Positions 3,093 to 42,608 of a stretch of 64,000 nt of DNA are shown piece by piece. The DNA lies in assembly GCA_964481635.1 (NCBI GenBank), contig CAYZTU010000001.1:149669-213668 (forward strand). The letters are read 5' to 3'. Below the pieces are notes generated by a model. That model was not told the origin of the DNA. It did not search any database and saw only the letters and a list, made by a program, of their open reading frames with translations. This stretch comes from an uncultured Synechococcus sp. Lineage in GTDB: Bacteria; Cyanobacteriota; Cyanobacteriia; Gloeomargaritales; Gloeomargaritaceae. The position numbers were made by a program, and so were the translations under genes. Each line of letters opens with the position of its first letter. The first letter of the stretch is position 1.

Positions 3093-3108
3093 ATTGGTAA
3101 TATAGCAA

Positions 3109-7462: not shown

Positions 7463-7494
7463 TGTCAAAATTGTCAAGAATTTCTATAGCAATC

Positions 7495-9460: not shown

Positions 9461-9661
9461 TTTAGATAGTTTCAGACAAAAATCAGTACAATATCCTGTT
9501 AAACACACCCTAAACCTGTGGCTTCAATGTACTAGAACAACCCCCCTGGTGCCAATTCTTAAGAAATACAGACAAAGGGCTGGCCTTGTCTCAGGAAATT
9601 TGTTTATAATAGCAGAGTGCGGAGACGCAAGTTTCCGTTCACTCCTCACACCACACTCTGG

Positions 9662-9688
9662 CCTAAGCTGGTGCTTAGGTCTTTTTTT
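9662..9688 (+). terminator. Putative rho-independent terminator hairpin (CCTAAGC-TGGT-GCTTAGG followed by TCTTTTTTT).
   Basis: 7-bp perfect stem followed by a T-run. Located in the 327-bp intergenic region between the IMPDH-family gene and trxA. Confidence 0.4.
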
Positions 9689-22293: not shown

Positions 22294-23637
22294 ATGACCG
22301 CATGGTTGGCTTGGTGGGGGAACCAATGGCGCACACTCACCCTGTGGTGGCGGAGTTTGGTGCAGGTGGTGGCCGATTTGCGCCTAGCGATTGGCCTGCT
22401 GTTGGTGATTGCGGTGGCGAGTATTGCCGGTACGGTGATTGAGCAGGGAGAAACCCTAACGTTTTACCGGGAAAATTATCCAGAACATCCGGCATTATTT
22501 GGATTTTTAACTTGGCAGGTCATTCTTTTTTTAGGATTCAATCAGGTCTATCAAACCTGGTGGTATTTGAGTTTATTAATTTTATTTGGGGCGAGTTTGT
22601 TGGCCTGTACGTCTCGGCGGCAATGGCCTGCCTTGAAAGTTGCCCGTAAGTGGTACTATCACCAGCGACCGGAGCAAATTTTGCGATTGAATTTAAGTCA
22701 AGTCTGCCCGGAAATTTCTATTTCTCAGTTGGCATCTATTTTGCGTCAAAAGGGATATTGGGTGGCTACGGAAAAGGAGAAACTTTATGCCCGTAAAGGG
22801 TTGGCGGGCAAAATTGGCCCGATTGTTGTTCATGCCAGTCTGGTGGTAATTTTAATCGGGGGTTTGGTCGGAGCACTAACCGGTTTTTTGGCTCAAGAAT
22901 TAGTCCCGAGTGGGCAGGATTTTCAACTCAAGAAAGTGATTGAAGCCGGGGCATGGGTGCGGCGTTTACCGCCAGTGCAGGGGCGGGTACATCGGTTTTG
23001 GATTGACTATACAGCGGGGGGAGAGATTGACCAGTTTTACACCGATTTGGGATTGTTAAATGCTGCCGGAGAAGAAGTGACCCGCAAGACCATTCATGTG
23101 AATGAACCTTTGCGGTGGCGGGGGTTGACTTTTTACCAAACCAGTTGGGGTATTCAGGGGGTACGATTGCGCTTTAATAATAGCCCAATTTTAGAACTGC
23201 CCGTTACTCCGTTTACAGCGGGGAATGGCCGGAAATTGTGGGGAACCTGGTTACCCCTAAAACCCGATTTAAGCGAGGGGGTATCCTTGGTAATTCCTGA
23301 CCTACAGGGCTTATTTTTGCTCTACGACCAACAGGGACAATTGTTAACCACCAGCCGGGTAGGAACACCGGTACATATTGGGGGGGTGGATTTAACGCTG
23401 ACCGAATTAGTTGGCAGTACGGGTTTACAAATCAAATCTGACCCGGGTGTACCCATTGTATATTTAGGCTTTGCTGGTTTGATGTTGGGTGTGATGATGA
23501 GTTACATCTCCCATAGTCAGGTGTGGGGGTTACAAATAGAAAAACAGTTATATGTTGGGGGTAAAACCAATCGGGCGCAGGTGACTTTTGAACAGGAATT
23601 TCTCAATATCTTGCAACAATTACAAGCCAGAATATAG
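22294..23637 (+). CDS. ccsB: Cytochrome c biogenesis protein Ccs1/ResB (CcsB).
   Basis: ResB-like N-terminal TM region and a large soluble domain. Length and topology are typical of cyanobacterial Ccs1. Confidence 0.8.
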   Translation: MTAWLAWWGNQWRTLTLWWRSLVQVVADLRLAIGLLLVIAVASIAGTVIEQGETLTFYRENYPEHPALFGFLTWQVILFLGFNQVYQTWWYLSLLILFGASLLACTSRRQWPALKVARKWYYHQRPEQILRLNLSQVCPEISISQLASILRQKGYWVATEKEKLYARKGLAGKIGPIVVHASLVVILIGGLVGALTGFLAQELVPSGQDFQLKKVIEAGAWVRRLPPVQGRVHRFWIDYTAGGEIDQFYTDLGLLNAAGEEVTRKTIHVNEPLRWRGLTFYQTSWGIQGVRLRFNNSPILELPVTPFTAGNGRKLWGTWLPLKPDLSEGVSLVIPDLQGLFLLYDQQGQLLTTSRVGTPVHIGGVDLTLTELVGSTGLQIKSDPGVPIVYLGFAGLMLGVMMSYISHSQVWGLQIEKQLYVGGKTNRAQVTFEQEFLNILQQLQARI

Positions 23638-23764
23638 ACTCAAATAATTATTGAAAATTCTCTTTCACCTGCGGCACTTCCCCCCTGTTAGGAAATAAGG
23701 CTATCTCACAAAATAACGAGGTATTCGTTGGATTCTCCTAAAGTAATCATGTAGTGATCTAATT

Positions 23765-23862
23765 AGAATTTTGCATGGCGGTCACATCGCACCGCCCCGC
23801 TCTGGTTCTGGCAGACCTCTTCAATTCTTATGAATCCCATGAGATTGCTATATCAACCCCAA
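23765..23862. repeat. MITE-like repeat copy R5 (GGCGGTCAC...CCGCCCCGCTCTGGTTCTGGCAGA ... GAGATTGCTATA).
   Basis: Core and right TIR. Lies immediately 3' of the doc fragment. Confidence 0.5.
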
Positions 23863-23903
23863 TCAGAGGTAGAGAACAACCTCAAACGCACCGCCAATTG
23901 CCT

Positions 23904-24438
23904 TCAATTTTCCGCTGCATTGGGATTGTTAGCTGGTGCTATATGATGCTGTAGCCACTCCACAAATGCTTCACGTCCCAGTTCACCTGATATGATCGCC
24001 AAGACTACACGCTCTTGTTCATCCACGGAGGCGTTAATTTTCAACCTATTCAGAACTATACCAATCCTACGGCATTCGTGAGAATATAAAAACGCTGAAG
24101 AACCAAAAACGGGGCGGTGCCCTGCGACCCTTTACTGTTTGAACGTAAAAATTATTCTCATGATTCAAGTGTGATTGCTATAGAAAGGTTTCCATTGCCG
24201 CATGACCTGTACGTTTATTTCCATCTACAAATGGATGATTGATGATGATTGAGAACCCTAATGTTGTTGCTTTTTCTAGCAGGTTTGGGTACAGGTCTTG
24301 TCCACCGAATGTCATTCGGGGCTGGGCGATCGCTGATTCTAATAAACCCATATCTCGGATGCCCGATGACCCACCGGATTGTTCAAGAATTTTGCGATGT
24401 AGCTCTAATACCTCAATCATTGTCAAATAGCGAATCAT
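23904..24438 (-). pseudogene. doc: Doc (death-on-curing, Fic/Doc family) toxin gene split by a MITE insertion. N-terminal 86 codons are at 24178-24438 and the C-terminal ~50 codons at 23904-24057.
   Basis: The N fragment carries the Fic motif HPFVDGNKRTGHAAMETFL. The C fragment translates to VLNRLKINASVDEQERVVLAIISGELGREAFVEWLQHH, which continues the Doc consensus. The two are separated by MITE R6, whose CTATAG end supplies an in-frame TAG. Confidence 0.8.
24058..24184. mobile_element. MITE-like repeat copy R6 inserted in doc (TIR TATACCAATCC ... GATTGCTATAG; likely TA or CTA target duplication).
   Basis: Removing the element restores the contiguous Doc reading frame ...METFL-VLNRLKINASVDE... 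Confidence 0.75.
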
Positions 24439-24632
24439 GCTAAACGCCGATATAGTTCACTATTTTTCGCCACTACATAATCGGCGGCATTAATAAAATC
24501 GTCTTTTTGTAGACTTAGCCAATCCTCTAAACTTGCTTTCAAAAGCACTTCAGTCGCAATGCCATGTACTCTTGCTAAATTCTGTAGCCTTTGGAATTGG
24601 CTGTCTGAAAGATCAATTGTGATAGAAGCCAC
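24435..24632 (-). CDS. Putative ribbon-helix-helix-type antitoxin paired with Doc.
   Basis: 65 aa. ITIDLSDSQFQRLQNLARVHGIATEVLLKASLEDWL fits an RHH beta-alpha-alpha fold. Sits upstream of doc in the same orientation with a 4-nt ATGA overlap. Confidence 0.55.
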   Translation of the reverse strand: MASITIDLSDSQFQRLQNLARVHGIATEVLLKASLEDWLSLQKDDFINAADYVVAKNSELYRRLA

Positions 24633-24846
24633 AGCGATTACTCTCCTAGTTTTTCTGCATCAAGTTTAACACTCACGTCCAAATTAATAACCTCATTGTA
24701 CTGTCCCAGACCAAAAGCCAAGCCAGCCAACAATGGTACTAACCTAGAAGGCATGAATATATTCTTCCAAAATTGGTTGGCGGAGATGTTCTTTCACGGC
24801 ATCCAGTGTACCGAGATCGACCGGACGTTGAAGTAAATTTTTTAAA

Positions 24847-24990
24847 TATAGCAATCCCGATTTGCAAACAAAGATTCTGATAGCTTGCGTGTCGCTTTGC
24901 AACATTAGCTTGCGTGTCGCTTTGCGACATTGGCTTGCGTGTCGTAGCCATAGAATCAAGGCGGGGGCAGTGCCCCCGCGACCGCTATTC
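24847..24990. repeat. MITE-like repeat copy R7, containing a 3x tandem ~23-bp sub-repeat (agcttgcgtgtcgctttgc-aca) and a GGGGGC-AGT-GCCCCC hairpin.
   Basis: Left TIR TATAGCAATCC at 24847. Core is in reverse orientation. Abuts an orphan C-terminal gene fragment at 24744-24830. Confidence 0.6.
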
Positions 24991-25096
24991 CCGAATTAAT
25001 AGAGGTTCCCTTTAACTAAAAATTAAGGGAATCTCCCTTGCTCAAATTCTGATGATATACTGATACCGGAGTAACATTTTATTAACAACTCTTCCT

Positions 25097-28000
25097 ATGA
25101 AGTTCATTTCCTCGCTGCGTCATCTGGTTTGGTTTCCCCTGAAGGCGTTAGCGGTGCTGTTTGTCTGTCAGGTGCCGGGGCTGGCATTACCCCAGGGCGG
25201 TCAAGTCACCCAGGGAGCGGCCACGATTCAACAGGTGGGGGATACCAAGCTAAATATCAATCAATCCACTGATAGAGCCGTCATCAACTGGAATAGCTTT
25301 AGCATTGCCCCCCAGGAGTGGGTGAATTTTCAACAACCCAGCAGTACATCAGCGACGTTGAACCGAGTCACTGGAGCTACACCCTCAAGTATTGCGGGCA
25401 GATTAACCGCCAATGGGCAGGTATTTTTGGTAAACCCCAATGGCATTGCGTTTTTACCCACGGCACGGGTGGATGTGGCGGGCTTAGTCGCCAGTACGTT
25501 GAATATCCAAGATACTGACTTCATGCGGGGCGTTTTGCGCTTTGAACAAATGCCAGGGAAACCCCCTGCGAGTGTAGTCAATCAAGGTTTAATTACGGTG
25601 AAAGAAGCGGGTTTTGCGGCCTTGGTTGCTCCCGCCGTGCAGAATAGTGGCATCATTTCCGCTCGCTTGGGTAAGGTCGTTCTGGCATCGGGAACGACGG
25701 TGAGCTTGGATTTCTATGGGGATGGATTATTAAGCGTGACGGTTGACCCCACGTTGGCGGGGCAAATCACGGATATTTATGGGAATAAATTAAATTCGCT
25801 GATTGACAACCAAGGCAATATCACGGCACCGGGGGGGATAGTTACCCTGACGGCTCAGGCGGCTGGTCAGATTGTAGATCATGTGATTAATGTTGGCGGG
25901 ATGATTGAGGCGAAATATGCGGAAAATCGCAATGGCGTAATTGTTCTATCCGGCGGGCAAAAGGTTACGGTTGCGGTAAATGGTGCGTTAGATGTATCGG
26001 GAATTGTATCAGGAGAGAAAGGCGGTAAAGTTACTATCACTGGGGAAAAGATTGCGCTTAATAATGGCACAACCATAGACGCTTCGGGTGATCAAGGCGG
26101 TGGGATTGTCAATATCGGGGGTAGTTTCCAGGGGAAAGGGACGCTACAGAATGCGATAGAAACGACGGTTGCCAAGGATGTCCAAATCAAAGCAGATGCC
26201 CTCACCCAGGGGAATGGGGGGGAAGTGATTGTTTGGGCGGATGGGACGACGAAATTTGAGGGTTTTGTGAGTGCCAAGGGTGGCATTATCACTGGGGATG
26301 GTGGGTTTGTCGAAATATCAGGGAAAGAAGTCTTAAATCTTGCGCCCGGTTGGTCGGGTCGGATTAACTTGAATGCCCCGGCGGGTGTGGCGGGTACTTT
26401 GCTCCTTGACCCCAATGACATTACGATTTCTGGCACAGCCGGAGCGAGTACCATTACCAATCCTGAGAATGCGACCGATTCAGGTAATCAATTATTAGAT
26501 GATGATATTGCGGCATTTTTGGGCGGTAGCAATTTAACGATTCAAACCACGGGCACAGGTGGGGTTGGCACGATCACGATCACTGGCGATGTGAATATCA
26601 CTTGGGGTACATCAAAAACCTTGACCCTCAATGCTGACCGCAATATTGTGATGAACAGTGGTGCAGTGATTCAAAATACCAATGCGGGTGCCACGCCTTT
26701 TGATGCCATAGTCTTTAATGCCAATGGTACGGGTAGCGGTAGTTTTGATGGTATTAAGCTTAACGGCAGTACCTTGGCTACTAATCGAGGCAATATTACC
26801 CTGACGGGGCAGGGCGGTGACACACTGAGCGGCAACCACGGTATCGTTCAACAGTCAGGTGCCCAAGTCAGCACGGTGGATGGCAACATTACCTATACGG
26901 GCAAGGGGGGTAGTAGCTCCGGCGGCGGTAACTTCGGGATTGATTTGAGGGATGCCACCACGAGCATTCGTACCACCGGCACTGGCAACATTACCTTAAC
27001 CGGAATAGGGGGCAGTGGCAGTGATAACAACATCGGCATTAATCAAAGCAGTAATGCCCAAGTCAGCACCATCAATGGCAATATTACCTATACGGGCACG
27101 GGGGGTAGTGGCTCCGACGGTAACTTCGGGATTTCTCTGACTGCTACGAGCATTCGCAGCACCGGCACCGGCAACATTACCTTAACCGGAACAAGCAAAG
27201 GCAATGGAGATGGTAACTCGGGCATCTACCAACAGTCCGCAGCTCAAGTCAGCACGGTGGATGGCAACATTACCTATACAGGCACGGGAGGTAATGGCAT
27301 TGACGATAACTACGGGATTGATTTGGCTGGTACGAACACAAGCATTCGCAGCACCGGCACCGGCAACATTACCTTAACCGGAAAAGGCCAAGGCACTGGA
27401 ACAAATAACTACGGCATCTATCAAATCTTTGATGCCCAAGTCAGCACGGGGGCTGGCAACATCATCTACACCGGCACCGGAGCAGGCACAGCAGATGGCA
27501 TTCGCATTGGCATTATTGGATTTGGCAGTAACGTGATTGGCTCGGCAACTACCACGGGCAATATTAGCCTAACCGCCCTGACCAATGGCCTGACACTCAA
27601 TGATGTTACGGTTCAAACGACTGGGAACCTTACCCTTTCTAGCCCAGGCAACACCAGTCAAAACAGCAGCGGTGGCCTATTCGCCAATGGTTTAGAGCTT
27701 TTAGGAACTGGTTCATTTACCCTTAGCAATGTCAACAACAACATCACCACCCTAGCGGCGGCTACCACCAATGACATTAACTACACGGATGCAAATGGGT
27801 TTGAAATTGGGACGGTGAATACCACCAATGGCGTGAATGTCAGCACAATCAAAAATCTCACCTTGAAAGCCGGTGGAGCAGTTACGCAAACCCAGAAGAT
27901 TACGGCGGGTGGGTTGGAACTCAAGGGAACAGGTAGTTACACCCTCACTAAAAACACCAACAACATCAGTATTTTAGCGGCTAATACTACGAGTAACATC

Positions 28001-31000
28001 AGCTACACGGATACTGATTCCTTCACCGTTGGCACAGTCAATGCTACGAATGGCATTACCAACGATGGAAACTCTACCCTCACAGCGTTGAATAATGGCA
28101 CGATTACCATCAACAAAAACATCACCAACAACGACACAGGCACATCAACCATCACTGTAAATGCTGACAAAAATATCGTAGTTAATTCTGGAGTAGAAAT
28201 CAAAAATACCAGCACAAGTACCACATTTAATGCCATAGTATTTAACGCCAACACCGCCGGTACAGCGACAGGAAACTTCGCAGGGATTACACTGAGTAGT
28301 AATAGTACCTTGAAAACTAATGGTGGTGGTATCAAACTCACGGGCAAGGGCGGAGATACAGGCTCTGATAACTACGGTATTTATCAACTCAATGGAGCGC
28401 AGGTAACTACCGCAAATGGCAATATCACCTATAAAGGCACGGGGGGTAATGGACTTAATTCTAATCATGGTATTAAGTTAGAAGATTCAAATACCCTCAT
28501 CACTACCGGCACGGGTAATATTGAACTGATTGGCACAGGTAATGGCACTGGGAGTACCAACTATGGTATTCAGCAAACGGATAACGCCAAAGTAACTACC
28601 ACCAGTGGCAATATCACCTACACTGGTACAAGTAATGGAACAAGTATAAACAATTTAGGTATCTTTCAGACTACTGGTGCCCAAGTCATCAGTACGGATG
28701 GCAATATCACATTCGATGGTACAGGCGGCAATGGCACAACTGGCAATGACGGCATCTTAATAACAAGTGCTAACACGCTCATCCAAACTACAGGTAAAGG
28801 TGATATCAGCCTCACGGGTACTGGCAAGGGTTCCAACGCTGTGGGAATTGTGCAACAAACATCAGCCAAAGTAGAGACAAATCAGGGCGATATTACTTAC
28901 AAGGGTACGGGGGGCAATACTGGCTCTGATAACTACGGCATTCATCAACTTGCCGGGGCGGAAGTAGTCAGTACAAGTGGCAATATCACCTACAAAGGCA
29001 CGGGGGGTAATGGCACAGAGAATAACTATGGGATTTATTTACTTAATGATGACACCAAAATCAGTTCTAACTCAGGGGCGATTAGTCTCACCGGGATAGG
29101 AAACGGGTCAGGTGATTCTAACAACGGCATTTATCAGAAAAATGGCGCACAGGTGACGACCCAAGGCGGCAACATTACTTACACCGGTACCGGGGGGAGT
29201 GGCACAGATAATAATTACGGTATTTTTCTGAACGGTGCTAACACCAAAATCACCACAACGGGCAATGGCAAAATTGAACTCACTGGCACAAGTAATGGTG
29301 CTGGCAATGATAACTATGGCATTTTTCAACAATCATCAGCGCAGGTGACCACTACTTCGGGCAGTATTAGTTACAGAGGCACGGGGGGTAATGGGACAGA
29401 TAATAACTTTGGTGTTGTTCTGAGTGATGCGAGTACAACAATCAGTTCTGATACCGGGGCAATCTCTATCACCGGCACAGGAAAAGGGTCAGGTGATTCT
29501 AACTACGGCATTTATCAGAAAAATGACGCACAGGTAACTACCGATGGCAACATCACCTACGAAGGCACGGGTGGCAAAGGCACGAATTCAAATTTTGGTA
29601 TTTTGCTGAACGGCACTGGCACCAAAATCACCACAACGGGCAATGGCAAAATTGAACTCACTGGCACAAGTAATGGTGCTGGCAATGATAACTATGGCAT
29701 TTTTCAACAATCATCAGCGCAGGTGACCACTACTTCGGGCAGTATTAGTTACAGAGGCACGGGGGGTAATGGGACAGATAATAACTTTGGTGTTGTTCTG
29801 AGTGATGCGAGTACAACAATCAGTTCTGATACCGGGGCAATCTCTATCACCGGTACAGGAAAAGGGTCAGGTGATTCTAACTACGGCATTTATCAGAAAA
29901 ATGGCGCACAGGTGACGACCCAAGGCGGCAACATTACTTACACCGGTACCGGGGGGAGTGGCACAGATAATAATTACGGTATTTTTCTGAACGGTGCTAA
30001 CACCAAAATCAGCACTACTGGTACAGGCACTATCAACCTGACTGGTACAGCTCAGGGCACAGGTACTGGCATCATAGGCATTAGGCAACAATCGTCAGCG
30101 CAGGTGAGCAGTGTAGATGGCAATATCACCTACCAAGGCACGGGTGGCAACGGCACAAACTTTAACTATGGGATTTTGCTCTTAGATACAAACACCACTA
30201 CTAGCAGTACGGGGAAAGGCACTATCAACCTGACTGGTACAGGTCAGGGCACAGGTAGCAGCAACTTTGGCATTTATCAACTCAATGGCTCAAAAGTAAC
30301 CACCACCGATGGCAATATCATCTACCAAGGCACGGGTGGCGATGGCACAAACTTTAACTATGGGATTTTGCTCTTAGATACAAACACCACTACTAGCAGT
30401 ACGGGGAAAGGCACTATCAACCTGACTGGTACAGGTCAGGGCACAGGTAGCAGCAACTTTGGCATTTATCAACTCAATGGCGCACAAGTCAGCACCGATG
30501 ATGGCAATATCACCTACCAAGGCACGGGTGGCAATGGCACAAACTTTAACTATGGGATTTATTTGCAATCTGTCAACACCAAAATCAGCACTACCGGTAC
30601 AGGGGCGATTAATCTCACAGGTACTGGTAAAGGTTCAGGTAATGATAATTACGGTATCGCCCAATTAGGTGGACCACAGGTAACTACCACCGGTGGTAAT
30701 ATCACCTACATTGGCACGGGGGGAAATGGCACAAGCTTTAACTATGGTATTTTATTGCAGGATACTATTACCACCCTTAGCACCTCTGGTACTGGCAATA
30801 TCAACCTCACCGGCACAGGAAATGGCACTGGTAATTTTAATTATGGTATCGTGCAACAGTCTGGAGCGCAGGTAAATACCACGAAGGGAAACATCAGCTA
30901 CACAGGTACAGGCAATGGCACTGGTGCTAGTAATTTTGGTATCTACCAATTCAATGGAGCGCAGGTAAATACCACCGATGGCAATATCACCTACACCGGC

Positions 31001-32131
31001 ACGGGGGGTAAAGGTGCGGATTCAATACACACCAAAACTGGCACAAACCTAATCGGCAATAACACCACCGGTCAAATTACTTTTACTTCCACAAATAATG
31101 GCATTACTTTCAATGAACTCAAAGTAGAGACTAAGGGTAATATCATCATCACTTCCCCTGGCGATGTCAATCAGAATAACAAGGGCGGACTATTTTCTAA
31201 GGGTTTGGAATTATTAGGTGATGGCAAATTTACGCTAACAAATACAAACAATAACATCGCCATATTAGCGGCCAAGACCAATAATGAAATTCGCTATACT
31301 GATACGAGTGGGTTTGATATAGGCACTGTTAATACCATCAATGGCATCAGCACTACTGGAATTGTGGTTCTCACTGGGAATGGCACCATCACCCAAACCC
31401 AACCCATTACCACCCCAGGCTTAGCCATTTTGGGTTCTGGTGGTGCCACTTTAACTAACACCAACAATCAAATTAGTACCATTGCCGCCGATACCAGTGG
31501 GAACCTGAAAGTAATTACCCAAGGGGATTTAACGGTGGGTGTAGTCAACCCCGATGGCATTGAAAATGCGGCTAGTGTATTTCTGCAAAGCCTCACGGGA
31601 GATATTATTCTTGATGAATCTATCAATGTCACTGGTGGCATTACCCTAGTTGCAGGTAGAGATTTCATCAACAAGGTGGGTGCAGGTGCCTTAAATCTTG
31701 AAGATGGAAGATTTTTAGTTTATGCCACTAGCCCTGAGCCCACGGGAAATTTCCAAGGCTTCTCCGTCCTGAAAGGTTCTCAGCAATTTAATACCACATT
31801 CCCCCAACCCGCTCTGTTCGCAGGCAGTGGCTTTTTGTATAAAGGTTTAGCACCTATTATTCCTGGATTGCCAAGTAGTTCAGTATTCACAGAACCCGTT
31901 ACATTTGTGCTTAATTTCAATGACCGGCAGTGGCGGGATTTAACGGATTTGGGTGAAGCAGTGTTCTTCCCCGAAGCCCTATTGTGCGTGAATGTCCCCG
32001 TGAATCAAACGACGGGTTCACCGCCTTTGACTGACCCCATCATTCTGAGAAGTGAAAATCTACCTGATCTCAATATCCAATGGCAAACAGGTGAACTGCC
32101 TGAGTGTTCTTCCCCAATCGTTGCCGAATAG
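25097..32131 (+). CDS. Two-partner-secretion exoprotein (TpsA; filamentous-haemagglutinin-like). N-terminal signal peptide and TPS domain, followed by about 1400 aa of Gly/Thr/Asn-rich ~38-aa repeats.
   Basis: Conserved TPS motif NPNGIAF. Repeat unit resembles GNITYTGTGGNGTDNNYGI. Near-perfect internal DNA duplications at 29252-29520 = 29622-29890, 29140-29250 = 29890-30000, and 30130-30290 = 30320-30480. Confidence 0.85.
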   Translation: MKFISSLRHLVWFPLKALAVLFVCQVPGLALPQGGQVTQGAATIQQVGDTKLNINQSTDRAVINWNSFSIAPQEWVNFQQPSSTSATLNRVTGATPSSIAGRLTANGQVFLVNPNGIAFLPTARVDVAGLVASTLNIQDTDFMRGVLRFEQMPGKPPASVVNQGLITVKEAGFAALVAPAVQNSGIISARLGKVVLASGTTVSLDFYGDGLLSVTVDPTLAGQITDIYGNKLNSLIDNQGNITAPGGIVTLTAQAAGQIVDHVINVGGMIEAKYAENRNGVIVLSGGQKVTVAVNGALDVSGIVSGEKGGKVTITGEKIALNNGTTIDASGDQGGGIVNIGGSFQGKGTLQNAIETTVAKDVQIKADALTQGNGGEVIVWADGTTKFEGFVSAKGGIITGDGGFVEISGKEVLNLAPGWSGRINLNAPAGVAGTLLLDPNDITISGTAGASTITNPENATDSGNQLLDDDIAAFLGGSNLTIQTTGTGGVGTITITGDVNITWGTSKTLTLNADRNIVMNSGAVIQNTNAGATPFDAIVFNANGTGSGSFDGIKLNGSTLATNRGNITLTGQGGDTLSGNHGIVQQSGAQVSTVDGNITYTGKGGSSSGGGNFGIDLRDATTSIRTTGTGNITLTGIGGSGSDNNIGINQSSNAQVSTINGNITYTGTGGSGSDGNFGISLTATSIRSTGTGNITLTGTSKGNGDGNSGIYQQSAAQVSTVDGNITYTGTGGNGIDDNYGIDLAGTNTSIRSTGTGNITLTGKGQGTGTNNYGIYQIFDAQVSTGAGNIIYTGTGAGTADGIRIGIIGFGSNVIGSATTTGNISLTALTNGLTLNDVTVQTTGNLTLSSPGNTSQNSSGGLFANGLELLGTGSFTLSNVNNNITTLAAATTNDINYTDANGFEIGTVNTTNGVNVSTIKNLTLKAGGAVTQTQKITAGGLELKGTGSYTLTKNTNNISILAANTTSNISYTDTDSFTVGTVNATNGITNDGNSTLTALNNGTITINKNITNNDTGTSTITVNADKNIVVNSGVEIKNTSTSTTFNAIVFNANTAGTATGNFAGITLSSNSTLKTNGGGIKLTGKGGDTGSDNYGIYQLNGAQVTTANGNITYKGTGGNGLNSNHGIKLEDSNTLITTGTGNIELIGTGNGTGSTNYGIQQTDNAKVTTTSGNITYTGTSNGTSINNLGIFQTTGAQVISTDGNITFDGTGGNGTTGNDGILITSANTLIQTTGKGDISLTGTGKGSNAVGIVQQTSAKVETNQGDITYKGTGGNTGSDNYGIHQLAGAEVVSTSGNITYKGTGGNGTENNYGIYLLNDDTKISSNSGAISLTGIGNGSGDSNNGIYQKNGAQVTTQGGNITYTGTGGSGTDNNYGIFLNGANTKITTTGNGKIELTGTSNGAGNDNYGIFQQSSAQVTTTSGSISYRGTGGNGTDNNFGVVLSDASTTISSDTGAISITGTGKGSGDSNYGIYQKNDAQVTTDGNITYEGTGGKGTNSNFGILLNGTGTKITTTGNGKIELTGTSNGAGNDNYGIFQQSSAQVTTTSGSISYRGTGGNGTDNNFGVVLSDASTTISSDTGAISITGTGKGSGDSNYGIYQKNGAQVTTQGGNITYTGTGGSGTDNNYGIFLNGANTKISTTGTGTINLTGTAQGTGTGIIGIRQQSSAQVSSVDGNITYQGTGGNGTNFNYGILLLDTNTTTSSTGKGTINLTGTGQGTGSSNFGIYQLNGSKVTTTDGNIIYQGTGGDGTNFNYGILLLDTNTTTSSTGKGTINLTGTGQGTGSSNFGIYQLNGAQVSTDDGNITYQGTGGNGTNFNYGIYLQSVNTKISTTGTGAINLTGTGKGSGNDNYGIAQLGGPQVTTTGGNITYIGTGGNGTSFNYGILLQDTITTLSTSGTGNINLTGTGNGTGNFNYGIVQQSGAQVNTTKGNISYTGTGNGTGASNFGIYQFNGAQVNTTDGNITYTGTGGKGADSIHTKTGTNLIGNNTTGQITFTSTNNGITFNELKVETKGNIIITSPGDVNQNNKGGLFSKGLELLGDGKFTLTNTNNNIAILAAKTNNEIRYTDTSGFDIGTVNTINGISTTGIVVLTGNGTITQTQPITTPGLAILGSGGATLTNTNNQISTIAADTSGNLKVITQGDLTVGVVNPDGIENAASVFLQSLTGDIILDESINVTGGITLVAGRDFINKVGAGALNLEDGRFLVYATSPEPTGNFQGFSVLKGSQQFNTTFPQPALFAGSGFLYKGLAPIIPGLPSSSVFTEPVTFVLNFNDRQWRDLTDLGEAVFFPEALLCVNVPVNQTTGSPPLTDPIILRSENLPDLNIQWQTGELPECSSPIVAE
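26800..31050 (+). repeat. Intragenic tandem repeat array (~114-bp units) inside tpsA, with recent near-perfect duplications of 110-270 bp.
   Basis: Identical 74-aa shadow ORFs at 29108-29332 and 29867-30091. Long identical DNA stretches are visible directly. Confidence 0.8.
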
Positions 32132-32270
32132 TCGTATGTTTCTGGGAAACTGTATTAGATGCCCAGATTCTGAAGAACCCCAGAGACTACTTGCTATTTT
32201 CTTGGGCAAATTTGTTGCATACATCAATCTCTTCGAGATAATCTAACAAAGTGAGGAGTATGGAGTTAAT

Positions 32271-33959
32271 TTGATGAAAATCCTGTTCTGCGGCTTGATT
32301 GTCTTGGGAGTTATGGAAATTCAGGCTAATGCTTTAGCCCAGGTCGGACCCATTGACCCTAGCCGGATTCAACAGGAGTTGCAACCCCCTCAGGTGCCCA
32401 CCCGCCCCGAAGAAATTACCATTCCCCGTCGGGATGAACCCACCGCCCCCCCCGGCGCAGAAAATGTGCGCTTCATTTTGAAAACGTTGGACATTCAAGG
32501 GGTAACCGCCTTCACCCCGGAGCAACTACAACTTCTTTACCAAGCCAACATCAATACAGAAATTTCCCTCGCAGAATTGTATATTATTGCCGACCAATTA
32601 AATAATCTTTATCGTCAGGGAGGCTACATTTTAACCCGGGTCTTAGTGCCGGAACAAACCATCCAACAGGGTGTGGCTCGCATCGAGGTGGTAGAAGGCT
32701 TTGTGGAGGCGGTAAAGTTCGTCGGTACGACCCCGGCGCAGGAGAACAGGTTGCGGGGTTTTGGGGAGTGGATTCAACGCTCTCGTCCCCTCAAATCCTC
32801 TGCCCTGGAACGGAATCTATTATTGATGAATGATTTGGCGGGTTATGAGGTGCGGGCGAGGCTTGACCCTGGCCAGGAAGTCGGGGGCAGTGTGTTAACT
32901 TTAGAACTAATCTATGACCCATTTGACCCATTTTTTGAAGTGAATAATTGGGCACCCGATTCCGTGGGGCCAGTGCGATTGCAAGGGGGGGTATTTTTGA
33001 ATTCCTTGGGCAATCAGGGGGAACGGTTTAGTTTGAGTGCCGCCACCACACCTTTTGATTTTGAAGAATTAGCTAGTGGCCGGTTTGACTTCCAAATTCC
33101 CATCGGTTTTGACGGGGTGACCTTGGCCACCAGTGCCAGCTACACGGGCACCCAACCGGGGGCGGAAGTTGCGCCATTTCTGGTGACGGGGGAAAGTTTT
33201 AACTTTAATCTCGGCTTGAGTTATCCCCTGATTCGTTCCCGGCAATTAAATCTATCCTTAAATGGCTTATTTGATTTAACCAATAGCACGGTTGCCACCC
33301 GTTTTTTGGGGTTTCCCATTGTTCTCAGCCAAGACCGGATTCGTTCGTTGCGGGTGGGGGCGACCGTGGACAATATCAATGCCGTGGGGTTTACTTCCGC
33401 TTCGATTTTGCTCTCCCAGGGGTTGAGCGGTTTGGGGGCACGGTTGGAGGGCAGTGAAGGGGCACCCCTCTCCCGGGCGAATGGTCAGGCAACGGGGTTC
33501 AAGGTGAACTTGAATTTTGCCCAGTTGTTCACCCTACCCCAGCAATTTAATCTTTTGCTAACGGGAGCGGGGCAGGTGGCCAGTACCTCCTTGCTGGTAT
33601 CGGAGCAGTTTGGCTTGGGTGGACCCAGTTTTGGATCGGCCTACAACCCTTCCCAATTGTTGGGGGATGATGGCTACGGGTTGCGCCTAGAATTGCAACG
33701 GCCAGTGAATTATCGCGCCGGGACGACGCCGATGGTCAGCCAGCCCTATGCCTTTGTGGATTATGGACAGGTGTTTTTGAAACAACCCACGGCGGCGGAG
33801 CCGGGGAATCGGGAGTTGGCTTCCGCAGGGTTAGGACTGCGCCAATTTATTAGTAATTATCTGCAAATGCGTTTGGAATTAGCCTTTCCTTTGAGTAAAT
33901 TTGTGCCCCAGTTTGAGCAAACCCCCCGATTATTATTTAGCGTTCAGGGAGTGTTTTAG
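32271..33959 (+). CDS. TpsB outer-membrane transporter (ShlB/FhaC/HecB family haemolysin activation/secretion protein with POTRA domains).
   Basis: Signal peptide, a POTRA-like N-terminal region, and a C-terminal beta-barrel ending in a terminal F. Positioned immediately downstream of tpsA. Confidence 0.8.
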   Translation: MMKILFCGLIVLGVMEIQANALAQVGPIDPSRIQQELQPPQVPTRPEEITIPRRDEPTAPPGAENVRFILKTLDIQGVTAFTPEQLQLLYQANINTEISLAELYIIADQLNNLYRQGGYILTRVLVPEQTIQQGVARIEVVEGFVEAVKFVGTTPAQENRLRGFGEWIQRSRPLKSSALERNLLLMNDLAGYEVRARLDPGQEVGGSVLTLELIYDPFDPFFEVNNWAPDSVGPVRLQGGVFLNSLGNQGERFSLSAATTPFDFEELASGRFDFQIPIGFDGVTLATSASYTGTQPGAEVAPFLVTGESFNFNLGLSYPLIRSRQLNLSLNGLFDLTNSTVATRFLGFPIVLSQDRIRSLRVGATVDNINAVGFTSASILLSQGLSGLGARLEGSEGAPLSRANGQATGFKVNLNFAQLFTLPQQFNLLLTGAGQVASTSLLVSEQFGLGGPSFGSAYNPSQLLGDDGYGLRLELQRPVNYRAGTTPMVSQPYAFVDYGQVFLKQPTAAEPGNRELASAGLGLRQFISNYLQMRLELAFPLSKFVPQFEQTPRLLFSVQGVF

Positions 33960-33961
33960 GA

Positions 33962-34080
33962 TACCGCTATTGATTAGCTACACCACACCAGCCAACAAAA
34001 TAAGCGGTCGCAGGGGCATAACCACCGTCTCTGGTTCTCGTTAACTTTGATGATTCTCGTAAATCATCTGTGATTGCTAG
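33962..34080. repeat. MITE-like repeat copy R8 (AAGCGGTCGCAGGGGCATAACCACCGTCTCTGGTTCT ... GTGATTGCTAG).
   Basis: Core and right TIR. Sits directly next to the left end of the IS605-family element. Confidence 0.55.
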
Positions 34081-34094
34081 TTTAAGTATTTTTT

Positions 34095-35697
34095 ATAGAA
34101 TATGAGCGGAAAACCCGGCTGCTTGCGGCGGGGATGGATAGCGAATCAACAAACAGCGCGCGTAGCGCATCCTTACAAAATAAATGCTATAATGTAAGGT
34201 ATGACAGAACGTGCTTTCAAGTTCCGCTTCTACCCAACTCCTGAGCAAGAAACCTTGCTTAGAAGGACGCTTGGCTGTGTAAGGCTGGTGTATAACCGTG
34301 CCCTCGCAGCCAGAACAGAGGCTTGGTATCAGCGTCAAGAGCGAATTGGGTTTGACATACTCCACCGCCCTAAAGGGCAGGGATTCTAAACCTCACGATT
34401 TAGATTTCTGCTTCTTTCTCTTTCGAGCCTTTCGCAACTGCCTCTACTCTCAAGGAGTTTTGGTCTTATGTTCGCTCCACAGACTTCAAGCTATTCCCCG
34501 CTTTCCCGGATGCCCCTCGGTATGGGGTTGGAAAAACTTGTTTTTTGTTTTCCCGATGTAATTCTAACAAAGTTTTTGTAAAGCCGCCCTGAAAGGGCGG
34601 GGTTTTAGACCCAGTTTTTTGATAACCAATCGTCCGCAATGCTGACCGAGTGGAAGCGGGATGAGGGGCTGAGTTTTCTGAGCGAGGTAAGCTCTGTCCC
34701 TCTCCAACAAGGATTGAGGCATCTGCAAACCGCATTCAGCAACTTCTGGGCAGGCAGAGCGCAATATCCCAACTTCAAAAAGAAGCGGAACGGGGGTTCT
34801 GCTGAGTTCACCAAGTCGGCATTCAAGTTTAGAGATGGTCAGGTGTTCCTGGCTAAATGCTCTGAAGCCTTGCCGATTCGTTGGTCTAGGCAGCTTCCTA
34901 AAGGTGCTGAACCCTCTACCATCACAGTCAAGCTGGAGCCATCGGGTCGCTGGACTGTTTCGCTGTTGGTGGATGATCTGACTATTCAACCGCTACCAAA
35001 AACTGACAAAGCGATTGGGATTGATGCCGGAATTACCAGCCTGGTTACAACCAGTGACGGTGAGAAGGTGTCCAACCCTAAACACTTTGCCAAGCTCTAT
35101 CAGAAGTTGAAGAAGGCTCAGAAACGGCTAAGCCGCAAGCAAAAAGGCTCTCGCAATCGGGATAAGGCACGGCGCAAAGTTGCCCGTGTCCATGCCGAGA
35201 TTAGAGACTCTAGACACGATTTCCTGCACAAGTTGACAACGCAATTGGTGAGAGAAAACCAAACCATCGTTGCTGAGTCGCTGGCAGTGAAAAACATGGT
35301 CAAGAATCGGAAGTTGGCAAAGTCGATTTCTGATGCTGGATGGAGCGAAATGAACCGCCAACTGGCCTACAAAGCTGAGTGGTATGGTCGTAACTTTGTC
35401 CAGCTTGACCGATGGTTCCCTGGTTCTAAAACTTGCTCGAAGTGTGGGCATAAAGTTGATTTGCTTCCTCTAAATGTTCGTGAGTGGGATTGTCCTAAAT
35501 GCAATGCTCACCATGACCGGGATGTGAATGCTGCTATAAACCACTTAGCTGCTGGACAGGCAGTGTTAGTCTGTGGAGCGACCGTAAGACCTGAAGAGAG
35601 CAAATCTCGGAAGGCTGGTGCTATGAAACAGAAACCTAAGCCGTGAGTCTTAGGAATCCTCGCTGCTTGCGGCGAGGAGGATGTCAATCGCTGCCAA
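34095..35697 (+). mobile_element. IS200/IS605-family TnpB-only insertion element (IS1341-like). Subterminal hairpins share a GCTGCTTGCGGCG motif, at 34113-34134 on the left end and 35657-35678 on the right end.
   Basis: Imperfect palindromes at both ends flank a tnpB gene. No tnpA is present. The right end abuts the stop codon of the methyltransferase gene. Confidence 0.7.
34201..35646 (+). pseudogene. tnpB: tnpB (RNA-guided endonuclease TnpB/OrfB) interrupted after codon ~58 by a roughly 240-bp insertion (34376-34613) that carries in-frame stops.
   Basis: N fragment begins MTERAFKFRFYPTPEQETLLRRTLGCVRLVYN. C fragment has SEVSSVPLQQ, a RuvC-like D/E/D region and a CxxC...CxxC zinc finger. 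Both fragments are in the same frame. Confidence 0.75.
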
Positions 35698-40755: not shown

Positions 40756-40850
40756 TATAGCAAAATCATCCAATTAGCGAACAGAAATTGTGAAGAACAG
40801 AAGCGGTATCCCTACAACCTTTGTTCCAAAATCAAGAGGGATTGCTATGG
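40756..40850. repeat. MITE-like repeat copy R9 (TATAGCAAAATC ... GAAGAACAGAAGCGGTATCCC ... GGGATTGCTATGG).
   Basis: TIRs and a partial core. Flanks the 3' end of the coiled-coil gene. Confidence 0.55.
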
Positions 40851-40859
40851 TATCAGCCA

Positions 40860-42608
40860 TCAAGAGTTTCTACGCCTGGGACTAATCAAATGTAAAACAT
40901 AGATAATCAAACCAGCAAAGCCCAACTCTTGATACAAAAAAGTGCGTAGTTGTTTGGATGTACGCTGTCTGCGAAATTCCCGTAGATAACTTTCAAATTG
41001 ACGGATAGCAATCATCTCCTGCTTACATACTTCTAATTGATTGCGTAGAAATCTTGACTCATCTAAAAGTTCGTTAGTTTTCTCTATAATATTATCGGTG
41101 ATTCCCAGTTCATTGAGTTTTTTGGGTATATTCCGAATTGGCTCTAACTCGGAGACAATTTTTTGAACTTGGTCTAAGAGTTTTTGAGTATTGGCTTCGG
41201 TTTGTTGGATGAAATTTTTAACTTGTTCTATTTTCTCCTGTTTAGTGTTTAGCTCAGTAATTGTCTGCTCGGAGAACGCTTTAGCTTGTTGTATCTCTTC
41301 AAGAATGCGTTGCATATCCTGTAAAACGTTCTCTCTGATGCCGAGTTGGTCTAATCTTTGAGGTAGATTCTTGAAATGTTCTAATTCTGAAGTGATTTTC
41401 TGTAGTTCTTGTAATTTCAGTTGAGTATCGGCTTCGGTTTGTTGGATGAAATTCTTGTTTTGCTCTATCCTTTCTTGATTGATTTGCAAATTAGTTAAGG
41501 TCTGTTCGGAAAATGCTTTAGCTTGTTGTACTTCTTCAAGAATACGTTGCATATCCTGTAAAACATTCTCCCTGATACCGAGTTGATCCAACCTTTGGGG
41601 TAAATTCTTGAAATGTTCTAATTCTGCAATGATTTTCTGTAGTTCTTGTAATTTCAGTTGAGTATCAGCTTCGGTTTGTTGGATGAAATTCTTGTTTTGC
41701 TCTATCCTTTCTTGATTGGTTTGCAGATCAGCAATTGTCTGCTCGGAGAACGCTTTAGCTTGTTGTATCTCTTCAAGAATGCGTTGCATATCCTGTAAAA
41801 CGTTCTCTCTGATACCGAGTTGGTCTAACCTTTGGGGTAGATTCTTAAAATATTCTAGTTCTATAATAATTCTCTGTAGCTCTTGCAATTTTAATTGAAT
41901 ATCAGCTTCGGTTTGTTGGATGAAATTCTTGTTTTGCTCTATCCTTTCGTGATTGGTTTGTAGCTCGGTAATTGTCTGCTCAGAAAATGTTTTAGCTTGT
42001 CGCACTTCTCCAAGAATACTTTGCATATCTTGTAAAACATTCTCTCTCATACCAAGTTGGTCTAACCTTTGGGATAGATTCTTAAAATATTCTAGTTCTA
42101 TAATAATTCTCTGTAGCTCTTGCAATTTTAATTGAATATCAGCTTCGGTTTGTTGGATGAAATTTTTGTTTTGCTCTATCTTTTCTTGATTGGTTTGTTG
42201 TTCAGCTAATGTCTGCTCGGAAAATGTTTTAGCTTGCCGTACCTCATCAAGAATGCGTTGTATATCCTGCAAAACATTCTCTTTGATGCCAGATTGGTCT
42301 AGGATGCCAAGTTGATCCAATCTTTGGGGTAAATTCTTGAAAGACTCTAATTCCGATAGAGTTTCGTCTAAGTCTGTTTTTGTTTTTTGTAATAGCTGTT
42401 TATTCAGTTCTAAATCTTGTGAAACAATTTCAATTCGTCGAATAAGTTCACTGACTTCATCAATTTGTTGTGCTTTTTGCAAAACTTCATCAATTTGTTG
42501 TGCTTTTTGCAAGAATTTACTCGCTTTTTCAAGAGCTTCATTAACTTTCTGACAGAGTAATTCTAAGTCCCTTGCAACTTCCAAATCAGTTTTGCTGTTG
42601 TAATCCAT
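40860..42608 (-). CDS. Tail-anchored coiled-coil protein built from about six near-identical 79-aa tandem repeats, with a single C-terminal TM helix.
   Basis: Repeat unit FKNLPQRLDQLGIRENVLQDMQRILEEIQQAKAFSEQTI.ELQTNQERIEQNKNFIQQTEADTQLKLQELQKI..ELE. C-terminal LYQELGFAGLIIYVLHLISPRRR. AT-rich. No match to any family I recognise. Confidence 0.7.
   Translation of the reverse strand: MDYNSKTDLEVARDLELLCQKVNEALEKASKFLQKAQQIDEVLQKAQQIDEVSELIRRIEIVSQDLELNKQLLQKTKTDLDETLSELESFKNLPQRLDQLGILDQSGIKENVLQDIQRILDEVRQAKTFSEQTLAEQQTNQEKIEQNKNFIQQTEADIQLKLQELQRIIIELEYFKNLSQRLDQLGMRENVLQDMQSILGEVRQAKTFSEQTITELQTNHERIEQNKNFIQQTEADIQLKLQELQRIIIELEYFKNLPQRLDQLGIRENVLQDMQRILEEIQQAKAFSEQTIADLQTNQERIEQNKNFIQQTEADTQLKLQELQKIIAELEHFKNLPQRLDQLGIRENVLQDMQRILEEVQQAKAFSEQTLTNLQINQERIEQNKNFIQQTEADTQLKLQELQKITSELEHFKNLPQRLDQLGIRENVLQDMQRILEEIQQAKAFSEQTITELNTKQEKIEQVKNFIQQTEANTQKLLDQVQKIVSELEPIRNIPKKLNELGITDNIIEKTNELLDESRFLRNQLEVCKQEMIAIRQFESYLREFRRQRTSKQLRTFLYQELGFAGLIIYVLHLISPRRRNS
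41050..42300 (-). repeat. About 237-bp tandem repeats (~6 units, above 90% identity) encoding the coiled-coil modules.
   Basis: Near-identical shadow ORFs at 41716-41898 and 41953-42135. The periodicity is visible in the DNA. Confidence 0.8.

What the first reader, a model, noticed from the sequence alone, without database searches (positions are those of the whole stretch)
23904..24632. Doc toxin gene split by a MITE while its RHH-like antitoxin stays intact
The Fic/Doc motif HPFVDGNKRTGHAAMETFL ends in a MITE-borne TAG. The remaining ~50 codons (VLNRLKINASVDEQ...WLQHH) continue 130 bp downstream, after MITE R6. Excising the element between the flanking TA/CTA restores a contiguous Doc ORF of about 136 aa. 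The upstream 65-aa RHH-like gene (24435-24632, ATGA overlap) is intact. This is a clear example of toxin inactivation by a mobile element leaving an orphan antitoxin, and it shows this MITE family transposed recently.
Basis: seen in the sequence. Interest (0 to 1): 0.6.

Follow-up and report, generated by a model that had tools for sequence, protein, structure and literature searches.

The report
Doc toxin gene split by MITE
A 122-bp non-coding mobile element has landed inside the toxin gene of a cyanobacterial Doc toxin-antitoxin pair and cut it in two, while the antitoxin gene stays whole; this is a clean but ordinary example of how such modules decay.

Summary
On the minus strand, a 65-aa gene (24632-24435) overlaps by ATGA a Doc gene that stops after 86 codons at a TAG. 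That TAG is the first three bases of a 122-bp element (24059-24180) flanked by a duplicated TA. Removing 124 bp gives a 136-aa Doc. It aligns without a gap to 13 intact homologues and passes the Pfam Fic and NCBIfam DOC_P1 cut-offs.

The element has inverted ends, a TA duplication in a CTAG target, no coding capacity and at least 8 relatives in the window. Its end motif recurs across many cyanobacterial genera. The TA duplication and TAGCA terminus match eight real cyanobacterial IS630-family elements, but no exact partner transposase was found.

The 65-aa protein is ribbon-helix-helix (CopG/ParD-like), not Phd-like.

The split gene shows no further decay, so the insertion is young. However, no near-identical sister copy was found, and the whole 1.4-kb cassette is absent from sister strains. 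Transposition in this genome is therefore not proven.

MITE-made pseudogenes in cyanobacteria and toxin-first erosion of these modules are both documented. This is a new instance of known things and of low interest.

The parts
24435..24632 (-). Intact 65-aa antitoxin gene. It has a ribbon-helix-helix N-terminal domain (residues 1-43) and a C-terminal helix.
   Evidence: ORF, with a GTG start, an RBS and an ATGA overlap. There are 288 cyanobacterial homologues, one of them 100% identical. It is paired with Fic/Doc by a 4-bp overlap in L001-L006. The top PDB profile hits are the CopG-family antitoxin 7by2, CopG and ParD. hhalign gives 92.9% and 90.6%. The AF2 model shows an extended stretch at 1-9 and helices at 10-23, 27-41 and 46-64.
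24181..24438 (-). Doc toxin N-terminal fragment: codons 1-86, including the Fic motif HPFVDGNKR.
   Evidence: Pfam Fic scores 76 bits on this fragment alone.
24059..24180 (.). 122-bp MITE (copy E). Its ends are TAGCAATCAC... and ...GGATTGGTA. It supplies the in-frame TAG stop at 24178-24180.
   Evidence: The inverted arms are 31 nt long and 74% complementary. It aligns with seven other window copies. It has no Rfam match.
24057..24058 (.). One copy of the TA target-site duplication, on the C-fragment side.
   Evidence: The restored site TTT CTA GTT CTG compares with the intact homologue L003, which reads TTT CTG GTT CTG.
24181..24182 (.). The other copy of the TA target-site duplication. It lies within the Leu86 codon CTA.
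23904..24056 (-). Doc toxin C-terminal fragment: codons 87-136 plus the stop codon.
   Evidence: It aligns without a gap to intact homologues. The NCBIfam DOC_P1 match spans residues 6-111, across the junction.
23741..23852 (.). MITE copy D, of the same subfamily as E. It is intergenic, just downstream of the doc stop codon. Its left end is degenerate.
24847..25006 (.). MITE copy F. It lies upstream of the antitoxin, in the divergent region shared with the haemagglutinin-like gene. It contains an internal short tandem repeat, and its far end is truncated.
   Evidence: Its truncated end coincides with the right edge of the strain-specific segment.
23605..25010 (.). Strain-specific segment holding the whole cassette and MITE copies D, E and F. 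Sister strains have 596 bp of unrelated sequence here.
   Evidence: L128 and L129 are 95-96% identical to the window up to 23604. L129 matches again from 25011. The interval between holds no doc or antitoxin.

Best explanation
This is a type II toxin-antitoxin operon: a ribbon-helix-helix antitoxin followed by a Doc-family Fic-fold toxin. The toxin gene has been interrupted by a 122-bp non-autonomous transposable element.

Shown:
- The element has imperfect terminal inverted repeats.
- It inserted at a C-TA-G site in codon 86 and duplicated the TA.
- Its first three bases, TAG, stop translation.
- Removing it restores a 136-aa Doc identical in layout to intact homologues.
- The antitoxin gene is untouched.

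Inferred:
- The insertion was made in trans by an IS630/Tc1-mariner-type transposase, which duplicates TA. The element's TA|TAGCAA.C terminus matches the ends of real cyanobacterial IS630 elements.
- The 86-residue product keeps the catalytic loop but lacks the last third of the helical fold, so it is inactive.
- The antitoxin therefore persists without a working partner. This is the usual first step of toxin-antitoxin decay, in which the toxin is lost first.

The event is evolutionarily young because the two halves carry no further lesions. The cassette lies in a variable spot that differs between sister strains.
For: - ORFs, stop codon and overlap.
- In-silico excision gives 136 aa only with a 2-bp TA duplication.
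- Gapless alignment across the junction to 13 intact homologues, with L86, L88 and N89 invariant.
- Pfam Fic 74 bits, and NCBIfam DOC_P1 44.1 bits (cut-off 38.65) spanning residues 6-111.
- The restored protein aligns with solved Doc structures over residues 3-118, so truncation at 86 removes the C-terminal third.
- The intact homologue L003 reads TTTCTGGTTCTG where the restored site reads TTTCTAGTTCTG.
- 31-nt inverted arms.
- Eight family copies in the window, 7 of them intergenic.
- At least 120 stretches with the same end motif, almost all in cyanobacteria.
- Flanks of 121 elements show a palindromic M-TA-K target bias (85% and 83%).
- Eight cyanobacterial IS630-family elements are TA-flanked and start TAGC..., two of them TATAGCAACC.
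- No excess substitutions in the split gene.
- Antitoxin fold.
- Precedents: 15 of 147 MITEs disrupt ORFs in Anabaena sp. 90 (PMC3542288). Toxin inactivation precedes antitoxin loss (PMC13617665).
Against: - No transposase-bearing element with the same full inverted repeat was found. The IS630 elements examined carry an internal GTTAGGAC box that the small elements lack.
- No empty-site allele of this same gene exists in the databases. The best intact hit is 88% identical.
- The only other assembly with this locus (L007) is 100% identical and may come from the same reads.
- Loss of toxicity in the 86-aa fragment, and expression of the antitoxin, were not and cannot be measured here.
- The element's arms are only 74% complementary, with a mismatch at terminal position 5.
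- No copy more than about 84% identical was found. Ongoing activity of this subfamily is therefore unproven.
Confidence: 0.9

Rival explanations
1. The cassette was acquired already broken. The element entered doc in another genome, and the whole 1.4-kb segment later arrived here by recombination. On this reading the locus says nothing about transposition in this genome.
For: Sister strains 95-96% identical in the flanks have a different 596-bp sequence and no doc or antitoxin at this spot. No copy close to E is present in the window. RHH-Doc cassettes sit in different neighbourhoods in other genomes.
Against: The same element family is abundant in this window (8 copies in 64 kb). A local source is therefore equally plausible. 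Copies D and G belong to the same subfamily as E.
Confidence: 0.3
2. Assembly artefact: a repeat was wrongly placed into an intact doc gene.
For: Short-read assemblies break at repeats. The Logan contig L007 ends 28 bp inside the element.
Against: The junctions are exact: there is a 2-bp duplication at a palindromic target, and removal restores the reading frame to the codon. A mis-join would not create that. L007 independently reads through the C-fragment/element junction.
Confidence: 0.02
3. Programmed or reversible interruption: the element acts as a switch, and its excision re-arms the toxin. A variant is that the two Doc pieces are made separately and reassemble.
For: Cut-and-paste elements can excise. 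A promoter-like site (TTCTCA-18-TATAGT, minus strand 24084-24055) lies at the element end facing the C-fragment.
Against: The promoter-like count equals the shuffle expectation (3 found against 2.9). The C-fragment has only a TTG with no ribosome-binding site. The element carries no recombinase and matches no intron or RNA family. By my own knowledge, Tc1/IS630-type excision normally leaves a footprint.
Confidence: 0.03
4. The insert is not transposase-mobilised. It would instead be a REP/REPIN-like or IS200/IS605-derived palindromic element, moved by a Y1 (HUH) enzyme or by recombination.
For: A TnpB gene is present in the window (34639-35646). No cognate DDE transposase was identified.
Against: By my own knowledge, IS200/IS605-type elements lack terminal inverted repeats and make no target duplication. 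Here there are long inverted ends, a TA duplication and a palindromic M-TA-K target. The termini match IS630 elements.
Confidence: 0.05

Closest known systems
Phd-Doc of bacteriophage P1 (PDB 3k33, 3dd7)
   Same: The toxin has the Fic/Doc fold, with the HxFxDGNKR loop. The restored protein aligns over residues 3-118. It is a two-gene operon with the antitoxin first.
   Different: The antitoxin here is ribbon-helix-helix, not the Phd/YefM fold. The toxin gene here is a pseudogene. The locus is chromosomal, not on a plasmid prophage.
CopG/ParD-type ribbon-helix-helix antitoxins (PDB 7by2, 2cpg, 2an7)
   Same: The N-terminal strand-helix-helix region aligns over residues 1-43. hhalign gives 92.9% and 90.6%.
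   Different: The protein scores below every Pfam and NCBIfam cut-off. The partner toxin is Doc rather than ParE.
IS630/Tc1-mariner family insertion sequences of cyanobacteria (e.g. ISAcma31-like, and the Gloeothece and Nostoc copies in L135-L142)
   Same: They show TA flanks and the terminal sequence TA|TAGC... Two Gloeothece verrucosa copies read TATAGCAACC against TATAGCAATC here.
   Different: Those elements are about 935-975 bp, encode a transposase and carry an internal GTTAGGAC box. The element here is 122 bp, non-coding and lacks that box.
MITE-generated pseudogenes in Anabaena sp. 90 (PMC3542288) and MITE-inactivated mcy genes (PMC10969869)
   Same: Small inverted-repeat elements are mostly intergenic, with roughly 10% inside ORFs, where they create pseudogenes. 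Here the figure is 1 of 8.
   Different: The organisms and gene targets differ. Whether the element families are related was not tested.
Nezha MITE of Anabaena/Nostoc
   Same: It is a cyanobacterial MITE of about 130-170 bp.
   Different: Nezha is flanked by a 10-bp direct repeat (PMC6042816), whereas this element has a 2-bp TA. It is a different family.
Two-step erosion of chromosomal toxin-antitoxin systems (Belot et al. 2026, PMC13617665)
   Same: The module sits in a high-turnover spot, and the toxin is pseudogenised while the antitoxin is intact.
   Different: That study, in Photorhabdus, reports mostly truncations and point mutations. Here the lesion is a MITE insertion in a cyanobacterium.

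Membership tests
Doc (Fic/Doc superfamily; Pfam PF02661, NCBIfam TIGR01550) | Fic motif HxFx(D/E)GNxR | tested here: met
   HPFVDGNKR lies at residues 68-76 of the N-fragment, and these columns are invariant in 14 sequences.
Doc (Fic/Doc superfamily; Pfam PF02661, NCBIfam TIGR01550) | Scores above the curated family cut-offs | tested here: met
   Pfam Fic scores 74.2 bits (cut-off 24). DOC_P1 scores 44.1 bits (cut-off 38.65) for the restored protein.
Doc (Fic/Doc superfamily; Pfam PF02661, NCBIfam TIGR01550) | Uninterrupted full-length coding sequence | tested here: not met
   A stop codon follows codon 86 and 124 bp are inserted. This is a pseudogene of the family.
Doc (Fic/Doc superfamily; Pfam PF02661, NCBIfam TIGR01550) | Phosphorylates EF-Tu and arrests translation | not testable with these tools
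   This needs biochemistry.
Type II toxin-antitoxin module | Two small adjacent co-oriented genes, antitoxin first, with overlapping stop and start, conserved as a pair | tested here: met
   There is an ATGA overlap. The same 65-aa + Fic pair with a 4-bp overlap occurs in L001-L006.
Type II toxin-antitoxin module | The antitoxin protein neutralises the toxin | not testable with these tools
   This needs a kill-rescue assay.
Ribbon-helix-helix (MetJ/Arc/CopG) antitoxins | N-terminal strand-helix-helix domain recognisable by profile | tested here: met
   The top PDB profile hits are all RHH, with E 0.016-0.054. hhalign gives 92.9% and 90.6%. The AF2 secondary structure fits.
Ribbon-helix-helix (MetJ/Arc/CopG) antitoxins | Passes a curated Pfam/NCBIfam RHH model | tested here: not met
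   The best score is DUF6290 at 15.1 bits against a cut-off of 27, and NCBIfam gives none. Weak RHH-type hits occur in 33 of 40 members.
Ribbon-helix-helix (MetJ/Arc/CopG) antitoxins | Structural match to solved RHH proteins | tested here: inconclusive
   Foldseek with the monomer model gave no hit at E <= 0.001. The fold is an obligate dimer.
Phd/YefM antitoxins | Sequence or profile similarity to Phd/YefM | tested here: not met
   No Phd/YefM hit appeared in Pfam, NCBIfam or PDB profile searches.
[quoted passage not shown] | Short, with no coding capacity | tested here: met
   The element is 122 bp and contains only a chance 33-aa ORF.
[quoted passage not shown] | Terminal inverted repeats | tested here: met
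   The arms are 31 nt long and 74% complementary, and the terminal 10 nt match at 9 of 10.
[quoted passage not shown] | Target-site duplication, verified against an empty site | tested here: met
   A TA duplication is the only solution that restores the conserved reading frame. The empty-site analogue is seen in intact homologues, not in the same lineage.
[quoted passage not shown] | Multiple dispersed copies | tested here: met
   There are 8 copies in 64 kb. At least 120 stretches occur in other genomes.
[quoted passage not shown] | Autonomous element with the same inverted repeats | tested here: inconclusive
   None was found in about 1 Mb of loci or in viral contigs. IS630 elements share only the TA and the first 5-9 terminal bases.
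IS630/Tc1-mariner-derived elements | TA duplication at an NTAN (often CTAG) target | tested here: met
   The doc site is C-TA-G. Position -1 is A/C in 85% and position +1 is G/T in 83% of 121 elements.
Nezha MITE family | Direct repeat of about 10 bp flanking the element | tested here: not met
   The duplication here is 2 bp. The Nezha direct repeat CATTATCTAC is given in PMC6042816.

The most novel reading that the evidence does not exclude
The elements ending in TATAGCAATCC may form an undescribed superfamily that is widespread in cyanobacteria, with apparent members also in Chloroflexi. It would be defined only by an inverted repeat of about 16-20 bp and an M-TA-K target. The interiors are unrelated between genera and no cognate transposase has been found. 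These elements would then be serviced by an as yet unrecognised, widely conserved IS630-like (possibly domesticated) transposase. Clusters such as the three copies ringing this cassette would help shuffle toxin-antitoxin modules in variable spots.
Probability: 0.15. Interest if true: 0.45.

Novelty: new member of a known kind. Interest (0 to 1): 0.2.

Why it matters
The finding gives a base-exact filled site for a cyanobacterial MITE family. The duplicated TA, the CTAG target and the IS630-like ends can all be read directly from a conserved reading frame. It is also one more natural example of the toxin-first route of toxin-antitoxin decay.

In practice it flags a doc pseudogene and an unmodelled ribbon-helix-helix antitoxin family that annotation pipelines label only as 'DNA-binding protein'. 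It does not open a new question.

Tried and rejected
- Empty site in the same lineage. An exact look-up of the antitoxin and of the 86-aa fragment found nothing on record. The neighbouring Ccs1 protein led to L007, which is identical and carries the same insertion. It also led to sister strains that lack the whole cassette. No same-lineage empty site could therefore be obtained.
- Autonomous partner. I paired long-range arms in about 1 Mb of fetched loci, but the enclosed ORFs were GAPDH, an amidase, methyltransferases and the like, not transposases. A combined 'terminus + YSxDLR' pattern found nothing in viral contigs. IS630 copies on cyanobacterial plasmids share only the extreme terminus.
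- Near-identical sister copies of E. There are none in the window, the loci or the JGI metagenomes. Only two exact 24-mer hits came back, the better one 81% identical.
- Structured RNA or intron. There is no Rfam hit, and DNA folding of the element is unremarkable (z = -0.9).
- Foldseek on the antitoxin monomer was uninformative.
- A literature search for the terminal sequence returned only unrelated primer matches. Wolk et al. 2010 is not held.
- MITE-flanked cassette mobility as a general rule was rejected. No paired elements lie next to RHH-Doc cassettes in L001-L006.
- The source organism could not be named.

Full report
**1. Observation**

- A 65-aa ORF runs 24632-24435. It starts at GTG, with GGAGAG 8 nt upstream.
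- It ends in TGA, which overlaps the ATG of the next ORF (ATGA).
- That next ORF runs 24438-24181 and encodes 86 residues ending NHPFVDGNKRTGHAAMETFL. It is followed by TAG at 24180-24178.
- From 24056 down to 23904 the same kind of protein continues (VLNRLKINASVDEQ...AAEN, then a stop codon).

Between the two parts lies an insert whose two ends both read TATA. I tested every possible duplication. Only removing 24057-24180 gives an open frame. That is 124 bp: a 122-bp element plus one TA. The result is 136 aa. A 4-bp or 5-bp duplication leaves the TAG in frame.

**2. The two halves are one Doc gene**
- The restored protein scores 74 bits on Pfam Fic. On NCBIfam DOC_P1 (death-on-curing toxin) it scores 44.1 bits against a cut-off of 38.65. 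That match runs from residue 6 to 111, across the junction at 86/87.
- A search of 5.8 billion proteins found 6851 relatives. The best are cyanobacterial Doc proteins of 136 or 128 aa, 79-88% identical over 100% of the query.
- In an alignment with 13 of them there is no gap at the junction. L86, L88 and N89 are invariant and V87 is nearly so.
- At the DNA level, the intact 136-aa gene of L003 reads ACC TTT CTG GTT CTG AAT. The restored window reads ACC TTT CTA GTT CTG AAT. The original target was therefore C-TA-G, and the TA was duplicated.
- The restored protein aligns with solved Doc structures over residues 3-118 (9vzc, E 1.6e-9; P1 Doc 3k33). The stop after residue 86 thus removes the C-terminal third of the fold but keeps the catalytic loop. 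That this inactivates the toxin is an inference.

**3. The insert is a MITE**
- It is 122 bp with no meaningful ORF. Its arms are 31 nt long and 74% complementary.
- The end motif is expected 0 times in shuffled sequence.
- The window holds at least eight related copies:

| Copy | Coordinates |
|---|---|
| A | 3101-3219 |
| B | about 7332-7461 |
| C | 7485-7606 |
| D | about 23741-23852 |
| E (in doc) | 24057-24182 (with the flanking TA pair; element 24059-24180) |
| F | 24847 to about 25006 |
| G | about 33960-34079 |
| H | about 40756-40849 |

- The copies share TATAGCAATC...GATTGCTATA ends and a GC-rich core (GCGGTCGCAGGGG...TGGTTCT). They fall into two subfamilies.
- Seven of the eight lie between genes. 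Only E is inside one.
- Pairwise identity is 67-90%, and E's best match is about 84%.
- No Rfam family matches.

**4. The wider family and its mechanism**

Almost all were in cyanobacteria of many genera, including Calothrix, Microcoleus, Okeania, Trichodesmium, Nostoc, Dapis, Planktothrix and Crocosphaera. A few Chloroflexi members also look genuine, with extended matching ends.

The conserved part is the arm, with consensus TATAGCAATCCTAaaTgAtTTgtg. The interiors are largely unrelated between genera.

Among 121 elements, the base before the TA is A or C in 85% and the base after is G or T in 83%. This is a palindromic M-TA-K target, and the doc site C-TA-G fits it.

A metagenome contig (L134) showed an IS630-type transposase N-terminus beside a family core. 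Using that peptide I fetched eight IS630-family elements from cyanobacterial plasmids.
- All are about 935-975 bp.
- All are flanked by TA and begin TAGC... Two Gloeothece verrucosa copies read TATAGCAACC, against TATAGCAATC in the small elements.
- They also carry an internal GTTAGGAC box that the small elements lack.

The transposase family is therefore well supported, but the exact partner is not identified. Other searches for it failed. Nezha, the best-known cyanobacterial MITE, has a 10-bp direct repeat and is a different family.

**5. The antitoxin**
- The 65-aa protein has 288 homologues, all cyanobacterial. Sources label them 'DNA-binding protein' or 'antitoxin FitA', and one is 100% identical.
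- In six other contigs it precedes a Fic/Doc gene with the same 4-bp overlap.
- It passes no Pfam or NCBIfam cut-off.
- A 40-sequence profile finds only ribbon-helix-helix proteins at the top of the PDB: the CopG-family antitoxin 7by2 (E 0.016), CopG (0.033) and ParD (0.054), covering residues 1-43.
- hhalign gives 92.9% and 90.6% probability.
- Of the 40 members, 33 give weak hits to DUF6290 and 23 to ParD.
- The AlphaFold2 model (pLDDT 79) has an extended N-terminus, helices at 10-23 and 27-41, and a C-terminal helix at 46-64.
- Foldseek on the monomer was uninformative.

The protein is ribbon-helix-helix and not Phd-like.

**6. How recent, and where**

The restored Doc departs from the consensus at 1 of 77 columns that are at least 95% conserved. 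This equals the median of 120 intact homologues. The intact antitoxin also departs at 1 of 47. There is no sign of decay after the insertion, so it is young relative to protein divergence.

Three points limit the claim of recent activity in this genome.
- No near-identical sister copy was found in the window, in about 1 Mb of fetched loci, or in JGI metagenomes.
- The only other assembly of this locus (L007) is 100% identical and stops 28 bp into the element.
- Sister strains (L128, L129) are 95-96% identical up to 23604, and L129 matches again from 25011. In between they have 596 bp of unrelated sequence containing a nucleotidyltransferase-like fragment, and no doc or antitoxin.

The 1.4-kb segment with the cassette and copies D, E and F is therefore strain-specific and sits in a variable spot. 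The cassette may have arrived already broken. RHH-Doc cassettes in other genomes are not flanked by such elements.

**7. Comparison with what is known**
- In Anabaena sp. 90, 15 of 147 MITEs lie in disrupted ORFs (PMC3542288).
- MITEs inactivate mcy genes (PMC10969869).
- In Photorhabdus, toxin-antitoxin modules sit in high-turnover spots and decay toxin first. Toxin-only pseudogenes number 185, against 8 for the antitoxin alone (PMC13617665).

This locus is a clean, base-exact example of both patterns and is not a new kind of thing.

**8. Verdict**

I classify it as a new member of a known kind, of low interest (0.2). The most novel reading still open is that the elements ending in TATAGCAATCC form an undescribed family, widespread in cyanobacteria, with an unidentified IS630-like transposase.

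Noticed in passing
window 23605-25010, against L128 7312-7848 and L129 1712-2307: The interval between ccs1 (ResB) and the haemagglutinin-like gene differs between strains. This strain has the RHH-Doc cassette plus three MITEs. Sister strains have 596 bp containing a nucleotidyltransferase (MNT-like) fragment. The left breakpoint falls in the last ~11 codons of ccs1 (447 aa here, 458 aa there). The right breakpoint falls at the truncated end of MITE copy F.
   Followed up: partly
L006 2417-2800 (Logan SRR15359042): Another cyanobacterium carries an independently broken doc. A deletion of about 10 bp at codons 83-86 shifts the frame, at almost the same position as the MITE insertion here. This could be coincidence or an excision/repair scar.
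   Followed up: partly
window 9619-9684 (+): A Yfr1 cyanobacterial sRNA (Rfam RF01116, 44.2 bits, above the gathering score). It was the only Rfam hit in the window.
   Followed up: no
window 34639-35646 (+): A 335-aa TnpB-like ORF (OrfB_IS605 plus the Cas12f1-like TNB domain). It lies about 560 bp downstream of MITE copy G. No link between the two was seen.
   Followed up: no
window 25097-33959 (+): A two-partner secretion pair. One gene is a 2344-aa haemagglutinin-like ORF full of internal repeats of about 190-380 bp. The other is a ShlB/FhaC-type transporter with a POTRA domain.
   Followed up: no
window 7332-7606: Two MITE copies sit in tandem, 23 bp apart, directly after a Uma2-family restriction-endonuclease-like gene (6767-7336).
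   Followed up: no
window 24880-24945 (inside MITE copy F): The motif GCTTGCGTGTCGCTTTGC occurs three times, 26 bp apart, inside the element. This explains its extra length. The shorter core GCTTGCGTG also occurs in a Gloeomargaritales element (L014).
   Followed up: no
window 24084-24055 (-): A promoter-like site (TTCTCA, 18 nt, TG-TATAGT) is formed by the MITE end and the flanking doc sequence, and it faces the C-fragment. The number of such sites equals the shuffle expectation, so it may mean nothing.
   Followed up: no
L134 7120-7304 (JGI Ga0272446_1011556): An IS630-family element (left end TA|TAGTCAAACAGGG, transposase starting MARPYSYDLRQK) is inserted right beside a core of the same MITE family. 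The contig ends inside the transposase gene.
   Followed up: partly
window 24435-24632 and proteins P0121-P0240: The 65-aa antitoxin family (288 members, all cyanobacterial, 78-100% identical) passes no curated Pfam or NCBIfam model. Sources name its members only generically.
   Followed up: partly
window 41082-42329 (-): Five tandem copies of a 237-bp unit (67-79% identical to the reference copy) lie inside a 582-aa ORF (40860-42608).
   Followed up: no
L011, L026, L028 (Clostridia and Chloroflexaceae MAGs): Elements with the same TATAGCAATCC...GGATTGCTATA ends and long palindromic arms occur outside cyanobacteria. This suggests either a wider host range or contamination of the bins.
   Followed up: no
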